DNA of 64,000 nt from a virus: positions 1 through 64,000 of IMG/VR virus record IMGVR_UViG_3300032116_000122, one strand, 5' to 3'. The notes beneath the pieces are model-generated. The model had not been told where the DNA came from and searched no databases. It was given only the letters and a program-made list of their open reading frames with translations. Numbering within the stretch: the first letter of the stretch is position 1; each line of letters begins with the position of its first letter. The position numbers were made by a program, and so were the translations under genes. Below are positions 525 through 11,849 of the stretch, piece by piece.

Positions 525-550
525 TTTGCGCCCCCTTTCTGTTAGTGGAG

Positions 551-623
551 TGGGGCGTGTAGGGATCGAACCTACGACCGAGGAATTATGAGTTCCCTGC
601 TCTAACCACTGAGCTAACGCCCC
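551..623 (-). tRNA. tRNA with CAU anticodon (probably Ile2, otherwise elongator Met)
   Basis: GGGGCGT-TAGCTCAGTGGTTAGAGC-A-GGGAA-CTCATAA-TTCCT-CGGTC-GTAGG-TTCGATC-CCTAC-ACGCCCC-A; canonical cloverleaf, paired 1:72 so not initiator, no encoded CCA. Confidence 0.95.
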
Positions 624-4287: not shown

Positions 4288-4974
4288 ATGATCGTAGTGG
4301 GTACCACTTTAACTGCTTTTGCAATGGACCAACAGCCACTTTGGGCAAGTTGGCTTACTAACCTTGAATTGCTTAAAGCCAGCCACAACGAAGAGGTTTG
4401 CTATTTTGCTGCTATTGAGGTAGATAAGCGCGGATTAGAGCCATTTAAGCCATTAATTGACTCTTTAAACCTAATAAACGGTCAATATTTCTCATATTCT
4501 TACGATGACACCAGGACTGAGGTTACTAGTGGCAATAGAATCCCGCATATATGCGCTGGAAGGAATATTGTGCAAGATTTTGCATTAGCAAGGCACGCCA
4601 GTCATATTTTGTTCCTAGACTCTGACACAACTCCTGATCAGCAGACTTTCCCCAAACTTCTTGAAATGAACCACGATTTAGTAGGTGGTGAAGTGGGCAC
4701 ATACTGCCTATCAGGGCCTGTTGTTGACAAATACCCATTTCCAGTACAAGAACATTGGAATACAGCTGGTTATTTACTTGCTTCAAAAAGGGTTTACTCA
4801 AGAATTCGCTGGAGATGGGATTGGTCTTTGAGCGACGACCCATGCTACGCTATGGACGCTAAGGAATTCTTAGGAGTCCCAACGTACGTAAGAAAAGACT
4901 GCATTGGTAGGCACTACCCAGAGTGTATTTCTCCTTTAGAAAACCGAGGGTACAACAGAACTGTAGTAATTTAA
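4288..4974 (+). CDS. Glycosyltransferase, GT-A fold (GT2-like)
   Basis: GRNIVQDFAL...HILFLDSD (DxD), SDDPCY; AGGAGG RBS. Confidence 0.75.
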   Translation: MIVVGTTLTAFAMDQQPLWASWLTNLELLKASHNEEVCYFAAIEVDKRGLEPFKPLIDSLNLINGQYFSYSYDDTRTEVTSGNRIPHICAGRNIVQDFALARHASHILFLDSDTTPDQQTFPKLLEMNHDLVGGEVGTYCLSGPVVDKYPFPVQEHWNTAGYLLASKRVYSRIRWRWDWSLSDDPCYAMDAKEFLGVPTYVRKDCIGRHYPECISPLENRGYNRTVVI

Positions 4975-5630
4975 TTATTAAATTTACTGTAGAACAGTTC
5001 TGCGTCATCTCCGGTCATAGCTAACAGTTCTGGATGAGCCGAAGCGGTAGTTGACGCGTAGTGAAGAACTGGAGCTCCTAAAGCTATACCGATTCTGTAA
5101 CCATGGCGAATTGTGTTTTCAAACAGCTCATCATCTCCGTACCATAGGTTATAACCTTCATCTATTGGCGGAACTACCCCCCATAGGTTACTTTTTACTA
5201 AAAATGCACAACCCCAAATTCCATATTTTCTATATGATCCATCACATTGTTTAAACCCAGCGGTAAAGTCTGATCCGTCAGACAAACTCCTATTGTAATT
5301 AAGACCAACAATACCCACAGTTGGATCATCCATCAAAACACGTTGGGCCACCTCTATTGAGTTTTCGTGAAGTTCTATGTCATCATTTAATAGAGTTACA
5401 GACTCATAACCATTTTCGTGGGCCTTTTTCCAGGCGTCGTTCCACATTCTGTAGAATTTCCAACCGTGGGCGTTGACTATTTCTCCCTGATGGTTGTTTA
5501 TGGCAGATACGCCTTCTTCAGAAGTGTGACCGTTGTCGTATATGACAACATCATAGTTTTTTAAAAAAGATAACAACGGAGATAACATTTGCCAATTTGA
5601 TCTAGTTGGAATTGCAATTAATGTTCCCAT
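4971..5630 (-). CDS. Glycosyltransferase family 2
   Basis: IAIPT, VIYDNG, LLNDDI, WGCAFLV, WYGDDEL motifs. Confidence 0.85.
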   Translation of the reverse strand: MGTLIAIPTRSNWQMLSPLLSFLKNYDVVIYDNGHTSEEGVSAINNHQGEIVNAHGWKFYRMWNDAWKKAHENGYESVTLLNDDIELHENSIEVAQRVLMDDPTVGIVGLNYNRSLSDGSDFTAGFKQCDGSYRKYGIWGCAFLVKSNLWGVVPPIDEGYNLWYGDDELFENTIRHGYRIGIALGAPVLHYASTTASAHPELLAMTGDDAELFYSKFNN

Positions 5631-5678
5631 ATTGACCCCTTTAGTACTATAATTGAGCTGACGTTAGAAAGGTTTACA

Positions 5679-6230
5679 ATGACAAGACTATGTGATTTTG
5701 CTAAAGATACCGACAAACTGTCGGCTCACCAGTATATACACGTGTATGAAGCCCTATTAGAACCAATACGAAACACCGCAAAGAATGTTCTTGAAATTGG
5801 TATTTATTGGGGCGGCTCAATACGCATGTGGAAATCCTACTTTCCAAACGCAACGATTCACTGCATGGACGTTCACGACAACTGCAACGGATTTAAAGGA
5901 GAAGACCGCATCTCTCCTGTATACCTAGACGCGTACTCTGAGGAGGCTCTAGGCAAAGTGTCACATATTAAGTTTGATTTTATGATAGATGACGGCCCTC
6001 ACACCCTTGAATCTCAACAGTATTTTGTTAATAAATATAGTTCGTTGTTATCACCAAATGGAATACTAGTAGTAGAGGATATACCCCACCCTGAATGGAT
6101 ACCAGCGCTTACTGAGGCAACCCCTGATTCGTTAAAACCATACAGCTATGGTATTGACCGCCGATGGGTTCCAGGACGCAATAGCATAAACGACGAACTA
6201 ATATTTGTTATAGACAAACGGTATGTATGA
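5679..6230 (+). CDS. Class I SAM-dependent (sugar O-) methyltransferase
   Basis: TDK..HQY, VLEIGIYWGGS, FDFMIDDGPH, GILVVEDI. Confidence 0.85.
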   Translation: MTRLCDFAKDTDKLSAHQYIHVYEALLEPIRNTAKNVLEIGIYWGGSIRMWKSYFPNATIHCMDVHDNCNGFKGEDRISPVYLDAYSEEALGKVSHIKFDFMIDDGPHTLESQQYFVNKYSSLLSPNGILVVEDIPHPEWIPALTEATPDSLKPYSYGIDRRWVPGRNSINDELIFVIDKRYV

Positions 6231-6982
6231 TTGTTGATAGCTTTTTATTTGGCTGGGAACTTGACATGCTTGAGTGCCGCCTAATTGAGCTCTACGATGT
6301 AGTTGACAAGTTTTATCTTATTGAATCTTCAGTAACTTTTCAAGGATCTTCAAAACCCCTAATATACAAAAATAACTTAGATCGGTTTAAAGAGTGGTCC
6401 GATAAAATTGTCTATATTGAAGCAGAACTCCCAATAACCGACAATCCATGGGAAAGGGAGTACGCCGCTAGGGATTCTTTAAAAACGTATTTACAAGAAC
6501 TTAGTGACGACACAATTATCCTACACGGTGACGTAGACGAAATACCGACTAGAGAGTTTATTACAAACTTACCTAACACCCTGCGTTATGGGGAAATAAT
6601 CGTGCTTGATCATGCGTTCTATTCTATGGCTGTTGATTGGGAACACCCAGAAACAATTACTGGAATTGTAGTTAGTCACAAAAAGACTTTAAATAACTTG
6701 AGTATAAGCGCGTGGAGGCGAATGCGCACGACTACTAGGTCGGTAGCCAACGGTTGGCACTTTACTTGGCTGGGTGGCGAAGAGTTTATAAAATTAAAAG
6801 CAGCTTCTTTTTCCCACACTGAAACACATATTCAAGAATATATTCGACAAATGGGTGGGAAGCTGTATACTGATGGGTATCATGTTCTTGGTGAAAAACT
6901 CATACCTGTTGACATTGACAATACGTACCCTGAGTATATAAAGACACGGCGCTGCCCGCAAACATGGTTGCGCCCCCGCTAG
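6227..6982 (+). CDS. Glycosyltransferase family 17 (MGAT3-like)
   Basis: ELDMLECRLIELYDVVDKFYLIESSVTFQG..KPL, WERE, GDVDEIP, GWHFTWLGG. Confidence 0.85.
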   Translation: MIVDSFLFGWELDMLECRLIELYDVVDKFYLIESSVTFQGSSKPLIYKNNLDRFKEWSDKIVYIEAELPITDNPWEREYAARDSLKTYLQELSDDTIILHGDVDEIPTREFITNLPNTLRYGEIIVLDHAFYSMAVDWEHPETITGIVVSHKKTLNNLSISAWRRMRTTTRSVANGWHFTWLGGEEFIKLKAASFSHTETHIQEYIRQMGGKLYTDGYHVLGEKLIPVDIDNTYPEYIKTRRCPQTWLRPR

Positions 6983-7055
6983 CCGGGTGATGCGTCCGGT
7001 TGACGCAAGGTGTCTTATAAACACCGGTAGACGGGTTCAACTCCCGTACCCGGCA
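6982..7055 (+). tRNA. tRNA-Ile(UAU) with non-canonical D arm
   Basis: GCCGGGT-GA-TGCGTC-CGGTT-GACGCA-A-GGTGT-CTTATAA-ACACC-GGTAG-ACGGG-TTCAACT-CCCGT-ACCCGGC-A; all four stems perfectly paired; anticodon TAT at 7016-7018. Confidence 0.85.
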
Positions 7056-7072
7056 CTGTTATAATTGATAAC

Positions 7073-7237
7073 ATGGTTGTTACTTACACTATCAGCACTC
7101 CAATGATGCACGATGCGCGTAGCATTGCTATGCGCCGTGCTACGGCAGAGGGTTGGGGTAGAGTGTCAGTAACTAACGTGAAGCAAGTTGGCGCACAAGC
7201 TTATGAAGTTACTTTGATAGTTTCTAAGTACTCATGA
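7073..7237 (+). CDS. Small hypothetical protein (54 aa, not in ORF track)
   Basis: MVVTYTISTPMMHDARS...; TATAAT 7060-7065 7 nt upstream; ATGA overlap with next gene. Confidence 0.65.
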   Translation: MVVTYTISTPMMHDARSIAMRRATAEGWGRVSVTNVKQVGAQAYEVTLIVSKYS

Positions 7238-7365
7238 GCGACGAAAAGCAGTGTGATACCTCTACACAGTGTGTTTACTGTGGTGGTCAGCTGGTTCCAG
7301 AACACGCACACTATAAGTGCAAAGACTGTGGTAGACGTGACGCATGCTGTGAAGGAGTATATTGA
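7234..7365 (+). CDS. Small zinc-finger protein (43 aa, not in ORF track)
   Basis: CVYCGGQLVPEHAHYKCKDCGRRDACC; coupled to both neighbours. Confidence 0.75.
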   Translation: MSDEKQCDTSTQCVYCGGQLVPEHAHYKCKDCGRRDACCEGVY

Positions 7366-8567
7366 TTAAAAAGCTATTTGGAAGAATCATAAGTATCTCA
7401 AAATGGTCTTTAATAGTTTTATCAATATTTCCAGTCAGCTCTGCTAAAGCAGAACTAGCCACTTACACCGTAACTGGGGCTAATGATCTGTGGTTTACGT
7501 ACACCGAACCTTCTGATTTTAAGGTACGTACTTACGCATGGGAGTACGGGATTGACTCCATGTTGTGGCTATACGACGCAAATGGTGTCTTACTCGCCCA
7601 GAACGACGATTTCTTTGGGCTGGATTCGTGGCTTGAAGTCGCCGTCCAACCGGGCTCATACAGGCTTCGCACAGGTGTGTGCTGTGGAAACCCCGACGCA
7701 TGGTATGGTACTAGCTATACTGTAGAACTAAACACTACCCCTACTAACATCCCAGAAACAACAACGACATGGCCGGAAACTACAACATCCACGACTTCAA
7801 CGACGACCAGTACTACCACTGCCCCAACAACGACTGTACCTGTCACGGAACCCCCAACTACCACGAGTACCTCGACAACTACGGAAGCACCGACTACTAC
7901 GACGACGGAACCTACAACTACGACTGTTACTGTGGCCCCGACTGTTACATCTGTTACCCCGGTACTACCCAGTGTTCCTGTGGAGCCCACTACGACAGCG
8001 CCCTCATTGCCGACTGTCCCTACTGTGACCCCCCCAACGCTTCCCCCTTCTACTACCACTACAACAACGGTCGCCTCAACGTCTACGAGCACCTCCATAC
8101 CGGAGTCAACCAGTTCGTCTACCAGCACGACCACACCGACAATTGTGCCTGTGGAGACTGGCCCTCTGGATTCTGAGGAAGAGATACTAAATCTCTCAGA
8201 CGAAGAACTCACTGATCTAGTAGAATCTATAGAAGTAAGTGAACTAACTGAGGAATCAATTGCCGCTGTATTCAGCGAAGAAGTACTTAATGAACTATCT
8301 GAAGAGCAGATAGTAGAACTAATTGACGCAATTGTCCCAGAAGAACTGTCTGACGAACAAGCATTAGTGCTTTCTGAAGCGTTGACTAACGCCCCAGACG
8401 ACGTAAAAGAAGAGTTTGAAGCTGAAGTGGACGTGTTTGGTGGCCAATTTGACACTTATGTACCAACAGGGTCTGCTGTGTCTGTAGGAGCACGAAGAGT
8501 GATAGTGGCTGCAGCTGCAGCCAGTTTTGCAATGCCAACCCCTACTAGCTCAAGGAAAGTTAGATGA
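7362..8567 (+). CDS. Secreted/surface protein: PPC-like domain, Thr/Pro/Ser mucin-like stalk, acidic repeats
   Basis: Signal peptide, IDSMLWLYDANGVLLAQNDD...LDS...PGSY, long T/P/S tract, (L)S/TEE repeats, hydrophobic plus basic tail. Confidence 0.8.
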   Translation: MIKKLFGRIISISKWSLIVLSIFPVSSAKAELATYTVTGANDLWFTYTEPSDFKVRTYAWEYGIDSMLWLYDANGVLLAQNDDFFGLDSWLEVAVQPGSYRLRTGVCCGNPDAWYGTSYTVELNTTPTNIPETTTTWPETTTSTTSTTTSTTTAPTTTVPVTEPPTTTSTSTTTEAPTTTTTEPTTTTVTVAPTVTSVTPVLPSVPVEPTTTAPSLPTVPTVTPPTLPPSTTTTTTVASTSTSTSIPESTSSSTSTTTPTIVPVETGPLDSEEEILNLSDEELTDLVESIEVSELTEESIAAVFSEEVLNELSEEQIVELIDAIVPEELSDEQALVLSEALTNAPDDVKEEFEAEVDVFGGQFDTYVPTGSAVSVGARRVIVAAAAASFAMPTPTSSRKVR

Positions 8568-10592: not shown

Positions 10593-11849
10593 ATGTCTAA
10601 GTTTCTTACAAACATTGATCTAACTGGTAATGAGCTACAGAACGTTGTAATTCATAATGCCGGTACCGCTCCATCAGCCAGCGCAAAGCTGGGTGGTCTG
10701 TACTTTGACACCTCTAGCGGAGTTAACAAGCTTAAGTACTACAACGGAAGCGCCTGGGTAGAACTATCAGTTGGTCCCTCTGGTACTTGGCAACCAGTAG
10801 ACGCTGACCTTACGGCAATTGCCGCGCTTACAGGTACTTCTGGTTTTCTTAAAAAGACCGCTGCAGACACCTGGGCCCTAGACACCAACACATACTTAAC
10901 TTCCAGTACTGGTGTTGTCAGCGTAAACGGAAACAGTGGTGTAATTACTGACATAGCCGTAACCACTACTGGGTTAAGCCAGTTTGGTACAGGCACCACC
11001 ACTTCAGCGCAACTTGCCACGGTGCTGTCAGATGAGACTGGGTACTCAACTGGTGCTAAGGCAGTTTTCAGCATTTCCCCAGCTATTAGCACCAGTATTA
11101 CAACTGCGTCTACTTCGTTTGACCTTGTTAACACCACTGCTACCACCGTTAACTTCGCCGGTGCAGCCACTGCTGTAAACATTGGTGCTGCAAACAGCAC
11201 TACCACAATTGCCGGTGACCTAGTTGTAAACGGTACAACCACCACCATTAACAGCACCACCGTTACCGTAGACGATCTAAACATCGTTTTGGGGTCTGTA
11301 ACCACCCCAACTAACAGCACTGCAAACGGTGGAGGTATCACTGTTGCAGGTGGTGTAGATGGTGATAAGACATGGAACTGGGTATCGTCGACCAGCTCGT
11401 GGACATCCTCTGAGAACATCGACCTGGCTTCGGGCAAGGTTCTTAAGATTGCTGGTACCCAAGTGCTATCGGCAACGGAGTACACAGGTAACTCCTCGAC
11501 TGCTACTACCGCCACCAACGTCACTGGCGGTGCCGCTGGCTCATTGGTATACCAGAGTGGTGCGTCTACAACCACTACGTTAGGGCTTGGTACCTCAGGG
11601 TATGTTCTTACTGCAGGTGCAAGCGCCCCAGCGTGGACAAAGAAGAAGCACGCTGAGACTCTGGCTACCAGTGCTACTTCGTACGCCCTTACACACGGAC
11701 TTGGCACCGCTGACATTTCAGTAGCAGTGTACGACGTTTATACAGGTGAAGTTGTGTACGCCGACATCGTTAACACCAACACGACTACAACTGTTTATTT
11801 TGCTACAGCTCCTGATGCTAACAAGTATCGAGTTGTTATACTTGCATAA
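10593..11849 (+). CDS. Tail fibre-like protein
   Basis: T/S/G-rich; DADLTAIAAL, GDLVVNGTTTTINSTTVTVDD, THGLGT. Confidence 0.75.
   Translation: MSKFLTNIDLTGNELQNVVIHNAGTAPSASAKLGGLYFDTSSGVNKLKYYNGSAWVELSVGPSGTWQPVDADLTAIAALTGTSGFLKKTAADTWALDTNTYLTSSTGVVSVNGNSGVITDIAVTTTGLSQFGTGTTTSAQLATVLSDETGYSTGAKAVFSISPAISTSITTASTSFDLVNTTATTVNFAGAATAVNIGAANSTTTIAGDLVVNGTTTTINSTTVTVDDLNIVLGSVTTPTNSTANGGGITVAGGVDGDKTWNWVSSTSSWTSSENIDLASGKVLKIAGTQVLSATEYTGNSSTATTATNVTGGAAGSLVYQSGASTTTTLGLGTSGYVLTAGASAPAWTKKKHAETLATSATSYALTHGLGTADISVAVYDVYTGEVVYADIVNTNTTTTVYFATAPDANKYRVVILA

What the first reader, a model, noticed from the sequence alone, without database searches (positions are those of the whole stretch)
6982..7055. 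tRNA-Ile(UAU) with a 6-bp D stem, 5-nt D loop and no U8
Seen: perfect 7/6/5/5-bp stems, TTCAACT T loop, CTTATAA anticodon loop, discriminator A, and G-A at positions 8-9. Its first base is the G of the GT17 TAG stop. Known: most bacteria read AUA with lysidine-modified CAU and lack UAU tRNAs; extended D stems are characteristic of tRNA-Sec. Inference: a TilS-independent AUA decoder with a remodelled core, or a tRNA mimic or decoy that standard scanners may score poorly. Perfect pairing argues against decay.
Basis: partly seen in the sequence, partly recalled or inferred. Interest (0 to 1): 0.8.

Follow-up and report, generated by a model that had tools for sequence, protein, structure and literature searches.

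The report
Phage isoleucine tRNA with selenocysteine-type core
A freshwater phage carries a conserved and probably working isoleucine tRNA for the AUA codon whose inner core is built like that of bacterial selenocysteine tRNA rather than an ordinary tRNA, a combination I found described in no paper.

Summary
Bases 6982-7055 (+) fold into a 7/6/5/5 cloverleaf with anticodon UAU, G at position 8, a 6-bp D stem, a 5-nt D loop and discriminator A. Base 1 is the G of the TAG stop of a GT17-family ORF.

It is a real gene under selection. About 20 sequence variants lie on some 40 uncultivated phage and metagenome contigs. They show compensatory changes in the acceptor, anticodon and T stems, and D-loop position 16 co-varies with T-loop position 59.

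The odd core (G8, U14-A21, C15-G before A21, G48, Y16:Y59) is the residue set that forms the base triples of bacterial tRNA-Sec. The frame, however, is ordinary: 7/5, short variable loop, A73. It is therefore neither tRNA-Sec nor an allo-tRNA.

Most likely it is a host-charged, lysidine-independent AUA decoder. AUA makes up 29% of this phage's Ile codons. The decoy reading has no support. Expression, charging and the 3D core are untested. The 14:21 pair is not kept in a sister group.

This scan had already noted the same tRNA family on other genomes, and other odd-shaped phage tRNA-Ile(UAU) families. I rate it a new variant of a known kind, of moderate interest.

The parts
6982..7055 (+). tRNA-Ile(UAU) gene, 74 nt, no encoded CCA
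   Evidence: ARAGORN. Rfam RF00005 gives 40.4 bits. The MFE fold is a cloverleaf. About 20 conserved variants show compensatory changes.
6989..6990 (+). Linker G8-A9. G8 replaces the near-universal U8.
   Evidence: Sequence. G8 is present in 20/20 group-A variants, although no search pattern fixed it. Among 345 other phage tRNAs from the same loci, 89% have U8 and 2.3% have G8.
6991..7007 (+). D arm: 6-bp stem TGCGTC/GACGCA around the 5-nt loop CGGTT. It holds U14-A21, the C15-G pair, C16 and G18-G19.
   Evidence: Fold and pair counts. Pairs 10:25, 11:24 and 12:23 co-vary. Pair 14:21 is UA in 21, GU in 5 and unpaired in 9. The C15-G pair is present in 35/35. The inner D arm is the same as in E. 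coli selC.
7014..7020 (+). Anticodon loop CTTATAA; anticodon UAU at 7016-7018, followed by A37 and A38
   Evidence: Sequence and ARAGORN. The anticodon is invariant in all homologues.
7026..7030 (+). Five-nt variable loop GGTAG ending in G48, the candidate third base of a C15:G:G48 triple
   Evidence: Sequence. G48 is present in 10/10 homologues found with a pattern that fixed only the D arm. The triple is modelled on A. aeolicus tRNA-Sec (PMC3711452).
7031..7047 (+). T arm ACGGG-TTCAACT-CCCGT, with C59 at 7041
   Evidence: Sequence. Positions 16 and 59 co-vary within group A: C:C in 14, U:U in 5, C:U in 1.
6227..6982 (+). GT17-family glycosyltransferase ORF whose TAG stop shares its G with tRNA base 1. 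It is the last gene of an island that relatives lack.
   Evidence: ORF list. Pfam PF04724 at 1.6e-26. Relatives of the protein have no tRNA nearby. DNA homology to related phages starts at 6981-6983.
7057..7065 (+). Extended -10-like box TGTTATAAT directly 3' of the tRNA. It is the likely promoter of the conserved downstream module that starts at 7073.
   Evidence: Read from the sequence. It is kept as TGnTAnAAT-like in most relatives (alignment). The promoter scan did not list it because no -35 box is present. The downstream module is syntenic in all relatives.

Best explanation
This is a functional elongator tRNA encoded by a phage. The host CCA-adding enzyme completes it and the host IleRS charges it. 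It reads the AUA codon with a genomically encoded UAU anticodon, so it needs no lysidine (TilS).

Its frame is the ordinary class I frame: a 7-bp acceptor, a 5-bp T stem, a 5-nt variable loop and A73. Its tertiary core, however, is of the bacterial tRNA-Sec type.
- U14-A21 and C15-G lengthen the D stem to 6 bp.
- G8 docks on the 14:21 pair and G48 on the C15:G pair. These replace the canonical U8:A14 and R15:Y48 pairs.
- G18-G19 and C16 of the 5-nt loop dock on the T loop (C16:C59).

The gene sits at the head of a conserved phage module. It supplies AUA decoding for a genome in which AUA is 29% of Ile codons.

Shown: the sequence features, conservation, compensatory changes, 16:59 co-variation, synteny and codon use.
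Inferred: expression, Ile charging, the base triples and the host.
For: 1. It is a tRNA. ARAGORN calls it, Rfam gives 40.4 bits against a gathering score of 29, and the MFE fold is the cloverleaf with z = -3.6.

2. It is under selection. Twenty distinct group-A variants lie on about 40 viral and metagenome contigs. In 35 distinct G8 tRNA(UAU) sequences, 97% of cells are paired and 19 of 23 pairs change on both sides. None of 500 shuffles reach this, and slid controls give 36-45%. In relatives whose neighbouring proteins are only 43-61% identical, the tRNA is still 84-94% identical. In six relatives it is essentially the only DNA that aligns.

3. The L-shape is kept. G18-G19 and T54-T55-C56 are invariant. 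Positions 16 and 59 co-vary: C:C in 22, U:U in 9, mixed in 4; Fisher p about 1e-5, not corrected for phylogeny.

4. The core resembles tRNA-Sec. G8, C15 and the G before A21 are invariant in 35/35 sequences (G8 defined that set, but no search pattern fixed it and it is 20/20 in group A). G48 is present in all sequences where the search pattern did not force it. U14-A21 is present in 19/20 group-A variants. In A. aeolicus tRNA-Sec the triples 8:(14:21) and C15:G20a:G48 replace U8:A14 and R15:Y48, and C15, G20a and G48 are fully conserved in bacterial tRNA-Sec (PMC3711452). E. coli tRNA-Sec has G8 interacting with A21 and U14, and a C16:C59 contact (PMC7609411). The E. coli selC D arm reads G-T-CGTCTC-CGGT-GAGGCG. 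Here it reads G-A-TGCGTC-CGGTT-GACGCA.

5. Ile identity is plausible. UAU, A37, A38 and A73 are present. The D loop is not an IleRS identity element in bacteria (PMC13752280).

6. There is demand. ATA is 346 of 22,780 codons, which is 15.2 per 1000 and 29% of Ile codons. It reaches 20-55 per 1000 in the four ORFs flanking the tRNA (4971-8567). The contig has no TilS domain. Related phages also carry tRNA-Arg(UCU).

7. The phage's other tRNA, tRNA(CAU), has a fully canonical core (U8, A14, G15..C48). The odd core is therefore not a general habit of this genome.
Against: There is no evidence of expression or aminoacylation.

Within group A the D stem hardly varies, so its pairing is supported mainly by comparison between groups. 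The pair that matters most, 14:21, is U-A in 21 and G-U in 5 sequences. It is unpaired in 9 of 35: U-U in eight sister-group sequences and G-A in L341. The group-A variant L351 has C-A. Pair 13:22 is A-A or A-C in the sister group. The 6-bp helix may therefore be a feature of groups A and B only.

The D loop has 5 nt, against 4 in tRNA-Sec.

G48 was forced by the search pattern for part of the data set.

E. coli-type IleRS charges UAU tRNAs poorly, and a UAU anticodon can misread AUG on E. coli ribosomes (PMC3575796). Function therefore depends on an unknown host.

The host is inferred only from distant similarity to Streptomyces phages, and the contig has no WhiB gene.

The most highly expressed late genes avoid ATA: the major head protein has 0 and the sheath has 1.
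Confidence: 0.7

Rival explanations
1. The function is the same (an AUA-reading Ile tRNA) but the architecture is conventional. The D stem has only 4 bp (10-13 with 22-25) and a 9-nt loop. G8 pairs with U14, and C15:G48 is a swapped Levitt pair. The two extra Watson-Crick pairs seen in the 2D fold do not form in the L-shape.
For: Comparing canonical phage tRNA-Ile(UAU) with the G8 forms, positions 15 and 48 switch together, from G15..C48 to C15..G48. In the sister group 14:21 is U-U and 13:22 is A-A. ARAGORN draws a 4-bp D stem.
Against: The G before A21 is invariant in 35/35 sequences, which a free loop base would not need. Group B has G8 with G14-U21, which fits a 14:21 pair and not an 8:14 pair. 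In the crystal structure of bacterial tRNA-Sec the same residues form the 6-bp stem plus triples (PMC3711452). Thermodynamics favours 6 bp.
Confidence: 0.17
2. It is a tRNA-shaped RNA that does not take part in translation. It could be a decoy for a host anticodon nuclease or other tRNA-targeting defence, or a processing or recombination signal at the border of a variable island.
For: DNA homology between related phages starts exactly at the tRNA 5' end, and the upstream island is unique to this phage. The core is unusual. Phage tRNAs that counter tRNA-cleaving defences are known (my own knowledge).
Against: All features that EF-Tu, the ribosome and the CCA enzyme need are kept by compensatory change: the 7/5 branch, the T-loop docking, the 7-nt anticodon loop with U33 and A37, and A73. 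The UAU anticodon is invariant while the phage uses AUA heavily. A decoy would more likely copy the host tRNA that is attacked.
Confidence: 0.06
3. It is a working tRNA but not a faithful Ile/AUA decoder. It may be charged with another amino acid, or it may read AUG as well as AUA and so recode some Met positions.
For: Allo-tRNAs with a Sec-like D arm often carry UAU and are thought to be missense or regulatory tRNAs (PMC5389517). M. mobile tRNA-Ile(UAU) reads AUG on E. coli ribosomes (PMC3575796). The E. coli IleRS identity pairs C4-G69, U12-A23 and C29-G41 are absent here (sequence; the identity set is from my own knowledge).
Against: The short variable loop and A73 exclude SerRS-type recognition. 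The 7/5 frame differs from allo-tRNAs. A35, U36, A37 and A73 are the main Ile determinants. ATA codons in the phage ORFs sit in ordinary coding sequence.
Confidence: 0.07

Closest known systems
Bacterial tRNA-Ile2(UAU), for example Mycoplasma mobile (PMC3575796), and ordinary phage-encoded tRNA-Ile(UAU)
   Same: UAU anticodon, A37, A73, class I size, and presumed lysidine-independent reading of AUA. Canonical phage versions turned up in the same scans.
   Different: Those have the standard core: U8, A14, A21, G15:C48, and a 4-bp D stem with an 8-9-nt loop, as in TA-GCTC-AGTTGGTTA-GAGC. This family has G8, U14-A21, a C15-G pair, G48 and a 5-nt loop. It gives no blastn match in 50,697 cultured-phage records, whereas a canonical phage tRNA-Ile(UAU) matches 674 records.
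Bacterial tRNA-Sec (E. coli selC; A. aeolicus structure, PMC3711452)
   Same: A 6-bp D stem whose last two pairs are U-A (G-C in A. aeolicus) and C-G. A small CGGU-type loop. G8 in E. coli. Invariant C15, G20a and G48. A pyrimidine 16:59 contact. See, PMC7609411 and PMC3711452.
   Different: tRNA-Sec has an 8/5 acceptor/T branch, a long variable arm, a UCA anticodon, G73 and a 4-nt D loop. It is served by SerRS, SelA and SelB. Here the branch is 7/5, the variable loop has 5 nt, the anticodon is UAU, the discriminator is A73 and the D loop has 5 nt.
Allo-tRNAs (Mukai et al., PMC5389517)
   Same: Sec-like D stem-loop. UAU is among their commonest anticodons. They are found in metagenomes and phages.
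   Different: Allo-tRNAs have 8/4 or 9/3 branches, a long variable arm and longer anticodon stems. None of these is present here.
tRNA-Pyl and mammalian mt-tRNA-Ser(UCN) (review PMC7609411)
   Same: A compact 5-nt D loop. D. hafniense tRNA-Pyl has G8 instead of U8.
   Different: Both have a single linker base, a 6-bp anticodon stem and a 3-nt variable loop. tRNA-Pyl also lacks G18-G19 and T54-Psi55-C56, which mt-tRNA-Ser(UCN) keeps. This tRNA keeps G18-G19, TTC, a 5-bp anticodon stem and two linker bases.

Membership tests
tRNA (Rfam RF00005) | Covariance-model score at or above the gathering score (29 bits) | tested here: met
   40.4 bits, E = 1.7e-7, model positions 1-71. The default-filter runs missed it.
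tRNA (Rfam RF00005) | Four helices kept by compensatory substitutions in homologues | tested here: met
   97% of cells are paired. Nineteen of 23 pairs change on both sides. None of 500 shuffles reach this.
Canonical class I tRNA core | U8:A14 reverse-Hoogsteen pair with A21 | tested here: not met
   G8, U14 and A21. G8 is invariant in 20/20 family variants.
Canonical class I tRNA core | R15:Y48 Levitt pair | tested here: not met
   C15 and G48 are in the swapped orientation, and C15 can also pair with the G before A21.
Canonical class I tRNA core | G18-G19 docking on Psi55-C56, with a 7/5 acceptor/T branch | tested here: met
   GG in the D loop and TTC in the T loop are invariant, and the branch is 7/5. 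Positions 16 and 59 co-vary. This is sequence-level evidence only.
tRNA-Ile reading AUA through UAU | Anticodon UAU with A37, and discriminator A73 | tested here: met
   CTTATAA loop and A7055. Both are invariant in homologues, except that position 38 varies.
tRNA-Ile reading AUA through UAU | Aminoacylation by IleRS, and AUA (not AUG) decoding | not testable with these tools
   This needs biochemistry. The literature shows that it depends on the IleRS type and the ribosome (PMC3575796).
Bacterial tRNA-Sec | 8/5 acceptor/T branch (13 bp), long variable arm, UCA anticodon, G73 | tested here: not met
   7/5 branch, 5-nt variable loop, UAU, A73.
Bacterial tRNA-Sec | 6-bp D stem with conserved C15, G20a and G48, and a base 8 that docks on 14:21 | tested here: inconclusive
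   All the residues are present and conserved, and the 2D fold forms 6 bp. However, the loop has 5 nt instead of 4, 14:21 is unpaired in 9 of 35 relatives, and no 3D data exist.
Allo-tRNA | 8/4 or 9/3 branch and a long variable arm | tested here: not met
   7/5 branch and a 5-nt variable loop.

The most novel reading that the evidence does not exclude
Freshwater phages have moved the bacterial tRNA-Sec tertiary core (a 6-bp D stem with the 8:(14:21) and 15:20a:48 triples) into an ordinary 7/5 elongator frame.

The stiffer D arm, which also lacks the site of the U8 modification, is then the adaptation that lets an unmodified UAU anticodon read AUA on host ribosomes. It would work either by limiting U-G wobble at AUG, in the way D-arm mutations such as the Hirsh suppressor change decoding, or by keeping host U34-modifying or tRNA-cleaving enzymes away.

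This would make tRNA-body remodelling a third route to AUA/AUG discrimination, beside lysidine or agmatidine and ribosome adaptation.
Probability: 0.12. Interest if true: 0.8.

Novelty: new variant of a known kind. Interest (0 to 1): 0.5.

Why it matters
Reading AUA without reading AUG is a classic decoding problem. It is normally solved by lysidine (TilS), by agmatidine, or in rare cases by a UAU tRNA together with an adapted IleRS and ribosome.

A phage must work with the host's enzymes and ribosomes. A conserved phage UAU tRNA with a deliberately different body is therefore a natural experiment on how far the tRNA core can be rebuilt, and on whether the body contributes to decoding accuracy or to evading host enzymes.

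It also shows that the tRNA-Sec core is not tied to the Sec machinery. It can be combined with a standard 7/5 class I frame, which is useful knowledge for designing orthogonal tRNAs.

On the practical side, default covariance-model filters skip this gene. Phage tRNA inventories and codon-usage studies probably undercount such genes.

Tried and rejected
- **Linkage to GT17.** 23 viral loci encoding relatives of the upstream GT17 protein have no tRNA. The overlap with the stop codon is therefore local, not a conserved pairing.
- **Inner D-arm variants.** The pattern TGNTGCGNNCGGTTNNCGCAA in viral contigs gave only the known family plus non-tRNA chance hits.
- **Genome-contig scan.** The pattern TCCGGTTGA-N10-CTTATAA was too loose. 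It says nothing about cellular homologues.
- **Wrong spacing.** The first broad viral pattern had 15 N instead of 13 by my mistake. It missed group A but turned up other G8 and compact-D-arm tRNA(UAU) groups.
- **Cultured phages.** Megablast or blastn with the locus, the tRNA and two sister-group tRNAs found nothing. Streptomyces phage BRock, the closest cultured relative, has 30 tRNAs but no Ile(UAU).
- **Expression.** One metatranscriptome holds contigs for 8126-8539 only, and nothing lies over the tRNA. Small structured RNAs are usually lost in such libraries, so this is no evidence either way.
- **Other domains.** TilS, WhiB and tyrosine-integrase domains were not found in the 75-kb contig, which is 83% complete.
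- **Literature.** Six full-text searches found no description of a 7/5 elongator tRNA with this core. This is not proof that none exists.
- **Pseudogene or decay.** Rejected because of conservation with compensatory changes.
- **attP remnant.** Rejected because the tRNA is full length and no integrase is present.

Full report
**What is there**

The window is the first 64 kb of a 75,482-bp IMG/VR viral contig. CheckV estimates it 83% complete, and its G+C is 46%. It encodes a terminase, portal, major head protein, tail sheath, DnaB-type helicase and family A DNA polymerase. Its head protein (60% identity) and polymerase (31-33%) are closest to the Borockvirus group of Streptomyces phages. Near-identical DNA occurs in lake and freshwater metagenomes from a dozen studies. 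An actinobacterial freshwater host is my best guess, and no more than that: the contig has no WhiB gene.

Base 1 is the G of the TAG stop of ORF 6227-6982, which is a GT17-family protein.

ARAGORN calls tRNA-Ile(tat). RNAfold gives exactly the 7/6/5/5 cloverleaf, at -34.9 kcal/mol with z = -3.6. Rfam's tRNA model scores 40.4 bits when the region is searched alone. The default-filter runs over the window and over the contig reported only the phage's other tRNA, a fully canonical tRNA(CAU) at 550-623(-) that scores 71 bits.

**It is a gene under selection**

An exact search for the D arm, and two searches that fixed only the anticodon loop and T arm, recovered the same tRNA on IMG/VR and metagenome contigs. 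After parsing there are 20 distinct variants on about 40 contigs. Some contigs are held in both collections.

The variants carry compensatory changes:
- G1-C72 to A-U or C-G
- G6-C67 to A-U
- G30-C40 to A-U
- T-stem pairs 49:65 and 50:64 changed on both sides

In an alignment of 35 distinct tRNA(UAU) genes that share G8 and a 20-nt D region, 97% of pair cells are standard pairs and 19 of 23 pairs change on both sides. None of 500 shuffles reach this, and partners slid by 1-3 columns give 36-45%.

The tRNA always heads the same phage module: small ORFs 7073 and 7234, a 401-aa protein, and so on to a virion protein at 10593. DNA similarity to every relative begins at 6981-6983, which is the tRNA 5' end. 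In six relatives the tRNA is essentially all that aligns, while the neighbouring proteins are 43-61% identical.

The glycosyltransferase and methyltransferase island upstream (4288-6982) is absent from the relatives. GT17 homologues elsewhere have no tRNA. The overlap with the stop codon is therefore an accident of an insertion that abuts the tRNA. Directly 3' lies TGTTATAAT (7057-7065), an extended -10-type box kept in most relatives.

**The core**

Canonical phage tRNA-Ile(UAU) genes found in the same scans read TA-GCTC-AGTTGGTTA-GAGC, with G15 and C48. The family here has G8, U14, C15, C16, GG, a G before A21, A21 and G48.

Across the 35 G8 sequences:
- C15 and the G before A21 are invariant.
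- 14:21 is U-A in 21, G-U in 5 and unpaired in 9.
- 13:22 is paired in 25.
- 10:25, 11:24 and 12:23 co-vary freely.

D-loop position 16 and T-loop position 59 change together: C:C in 22, U:U in 9, mixed in 4. Within group A alone the counts are 14, 5 and 1. This co-variation indicates that D-loop/T-loop docking is maintained.

This residue set is that of bacterial tRNA-Sec. In the A. aeolicus crystal structure the D stem has 6 bp. The triples 8:(14:21) and C15:G20a:G48 take the place of U8:A14 and R15:Y48. [quoted passage not shown] In E. coli tRNA-Sec, G8 interacts with A21 and U14, and C16 with C59 (PMC7609411). The E. coli selC gene reads G-T-CGTCTC-CGGT-GAGGCG at this place. That is the same inner D arm as here, apart from one extra U in the loop.

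Everything else differs from tRNA-Sec and from allo-tRNAs (PMC5389517). The branch is 7/5, the variable loop has 5 nt, the discriminator is A73 and the anticodon is UAU. The best description is an ordinary class I frame carrying a Sec-type core. That the triples form is an inference from analogy.

The main caveat is the sister group (GA-GCCATC-CGGTT-GTAGGC and similar). There 13:22 is A-A and 14:21 is U-U, so the extension is not a universal Watson-Crick helix.

**Function**

ATA makes up 15.2 per 1000 codons and 29% of Ile codons in my crude ORF set. It reaches 20-55 per 1000 in the four ORFs flanking the tRNA (4971-8567). It is almost absent from the head and sheath genes. The contig has no TilS domain. 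Related phages add tRNA-Arg(UCU) and tRNA(CAU), which is a typical rare-codon kit.

UAU, A37, A38 and A73 fit Ile identity. The D loop is not an IleRS identity element in bacteria (PMC13752280), so IleRS should tolerate a rebuilt D arm.

E. coli-type IleRS charges UAU poorly. The tilS-lacking Bifidobacterium and Neorickettsia species, which carry a UAU tRNA-Ile, have the eukaryote-type IleRS. M. mobile tRNA-Ile(UAU) reads AUG on E. coli ribosomes (PMC3575796). Whether the rebuilt body helps with charging, with accuracy, or with escaping host enzymes is open.

G8 excludes any modification specific to U8. In bacteria that is 4-thiouridine (my own knowledge).

**How unusual it is**

Among 345 other distinct tRNAs on the fetched phage loci, 89% have U8, 2.3% have G8, and 3% can form a D helix of 6 bp or more with a loop of 5 nt or fewer. 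One metagenome contig (L317) has several such tRNAs for other amino acids, so compact D arms are not confined to Ile.

Groups A, B and D give no blastn match in 50,697 cultured-phage records, whereas a canonical phage tRNA-Ile(UAU) matches 674. Six literature searches found no description of this combination.

Earlier notes of this scan record the same tRNA family on other genomes (one mentions G8, one the TGGTATAAT flank). They also record other odd-shaped phage tRNA-Ile(UAU) families. These are unchecked notes, not independent evidence. They do suggest that phage UAU tRNAs are a hotspot of tRNA-body variation.

**Verdict**

- The 'AUA decoder with remodelled core' reading is supported by comparative evidence but untested at the bench.
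- The decoy reading is not supported.
- I rate it a new variant of a known kind, with interest 0.5.

Noticed in passing
window 550-623 (-): The phage's second tRNA has anticodon CAU and a fully canonical core (U8, A14, G15..C48). It scores 71 bits with Rfam. G1-C72 and an anticodon stem without three G-C pairs next to the loop argue against an initiator. Whether it is an elongator Met tRNA or a lysidine-dependent Ile2 tRNA, which would be a second AUA decoder, was not resolved.
   Followed up: partly
window 7057-7065: TGTTATAAT, an extended -10-type box, starts two bases after the discriminator. It is kept as TGnTAnAAT-like in most related phages. The T loop (TTCAAC) lies 18 nt upstream, where a -35 box would be. 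The tRNA 3' half may double as promoter DNA for the conserved downstream module.
   Followed up: partly
window 4288-6982: The glycosyltransferase and methyltransferase island is missing from all related phages. DNA homology to them starts exactly at the tRNA 5' end (6981-6983). The island's ORFs are the most ATA-rich of the genome, at up to 55 per 1000 codons.
   Followed up: partly
window 7362-8567: Relatives match only the N- and C-terminal thirds of this 401-aa protein, so the middle is hypervariable. One metagenome contig replaces 7859-7928 with 28 other bases.
   Followed up: no
L346:3320-3394: A 72-nt tRNA(UAU) has the same D arm (TGCTTC-CGGTT-GAGGCA) but no linker bases 8-9 between the acceptor and D stems. 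A larger group (for example L133:800-875, GGGGCGT-TGCAGC-CGGTA-GTTGCA-C) has the same layout with a 7-nt variable loop.
   Followed up: partly
L317 (metagenome contig WUUC01122636.1): This tRNA cluster holds Val(UAC), Val(GAC), Pro(CGG), Thr(CGU), Glu(CUC) and Gly(UCC) genes that can all form 6-bp D stems with 3-4-nt loops. Compact, Sec-like D arms may therefore be a genome-wide style in some phages.
   Followed up: no
L006:5427-5496: In a related 95.6-kb phage contig, ARAGORN calls a 70-nt 'tRNA-SeC(tca)'. Its anticodon arm is a perfect 8-bp palindromic stem with a 3-nt loop, so it is tRNA-like but not a normal decoder.
   Followed up: no
L264 and L234 (genome contigs): Two of the 120 otherwise chance hits look like unusual tRNA(UAU) genes in cellular MAGs. 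L264 has an 8-bp acceptor, a 4-bp T stem and the D arm GCTCTC-CGGTT-GAGGGC, which is allo-tRNA-like. L234, from a Planctomycetota MAG, has a 4-bp D stem, a 5-nt loop and a 7-bp anticodon stem.
   Followed up: no
L327 (metagenome contig): A tRNA-Ile(GAU) with G8-A9 and a 5-6-bp D stem sits among several tRNAs that have A8. Non-U8 tRNAs therefore cluster in particular phages.
   Followed up: no
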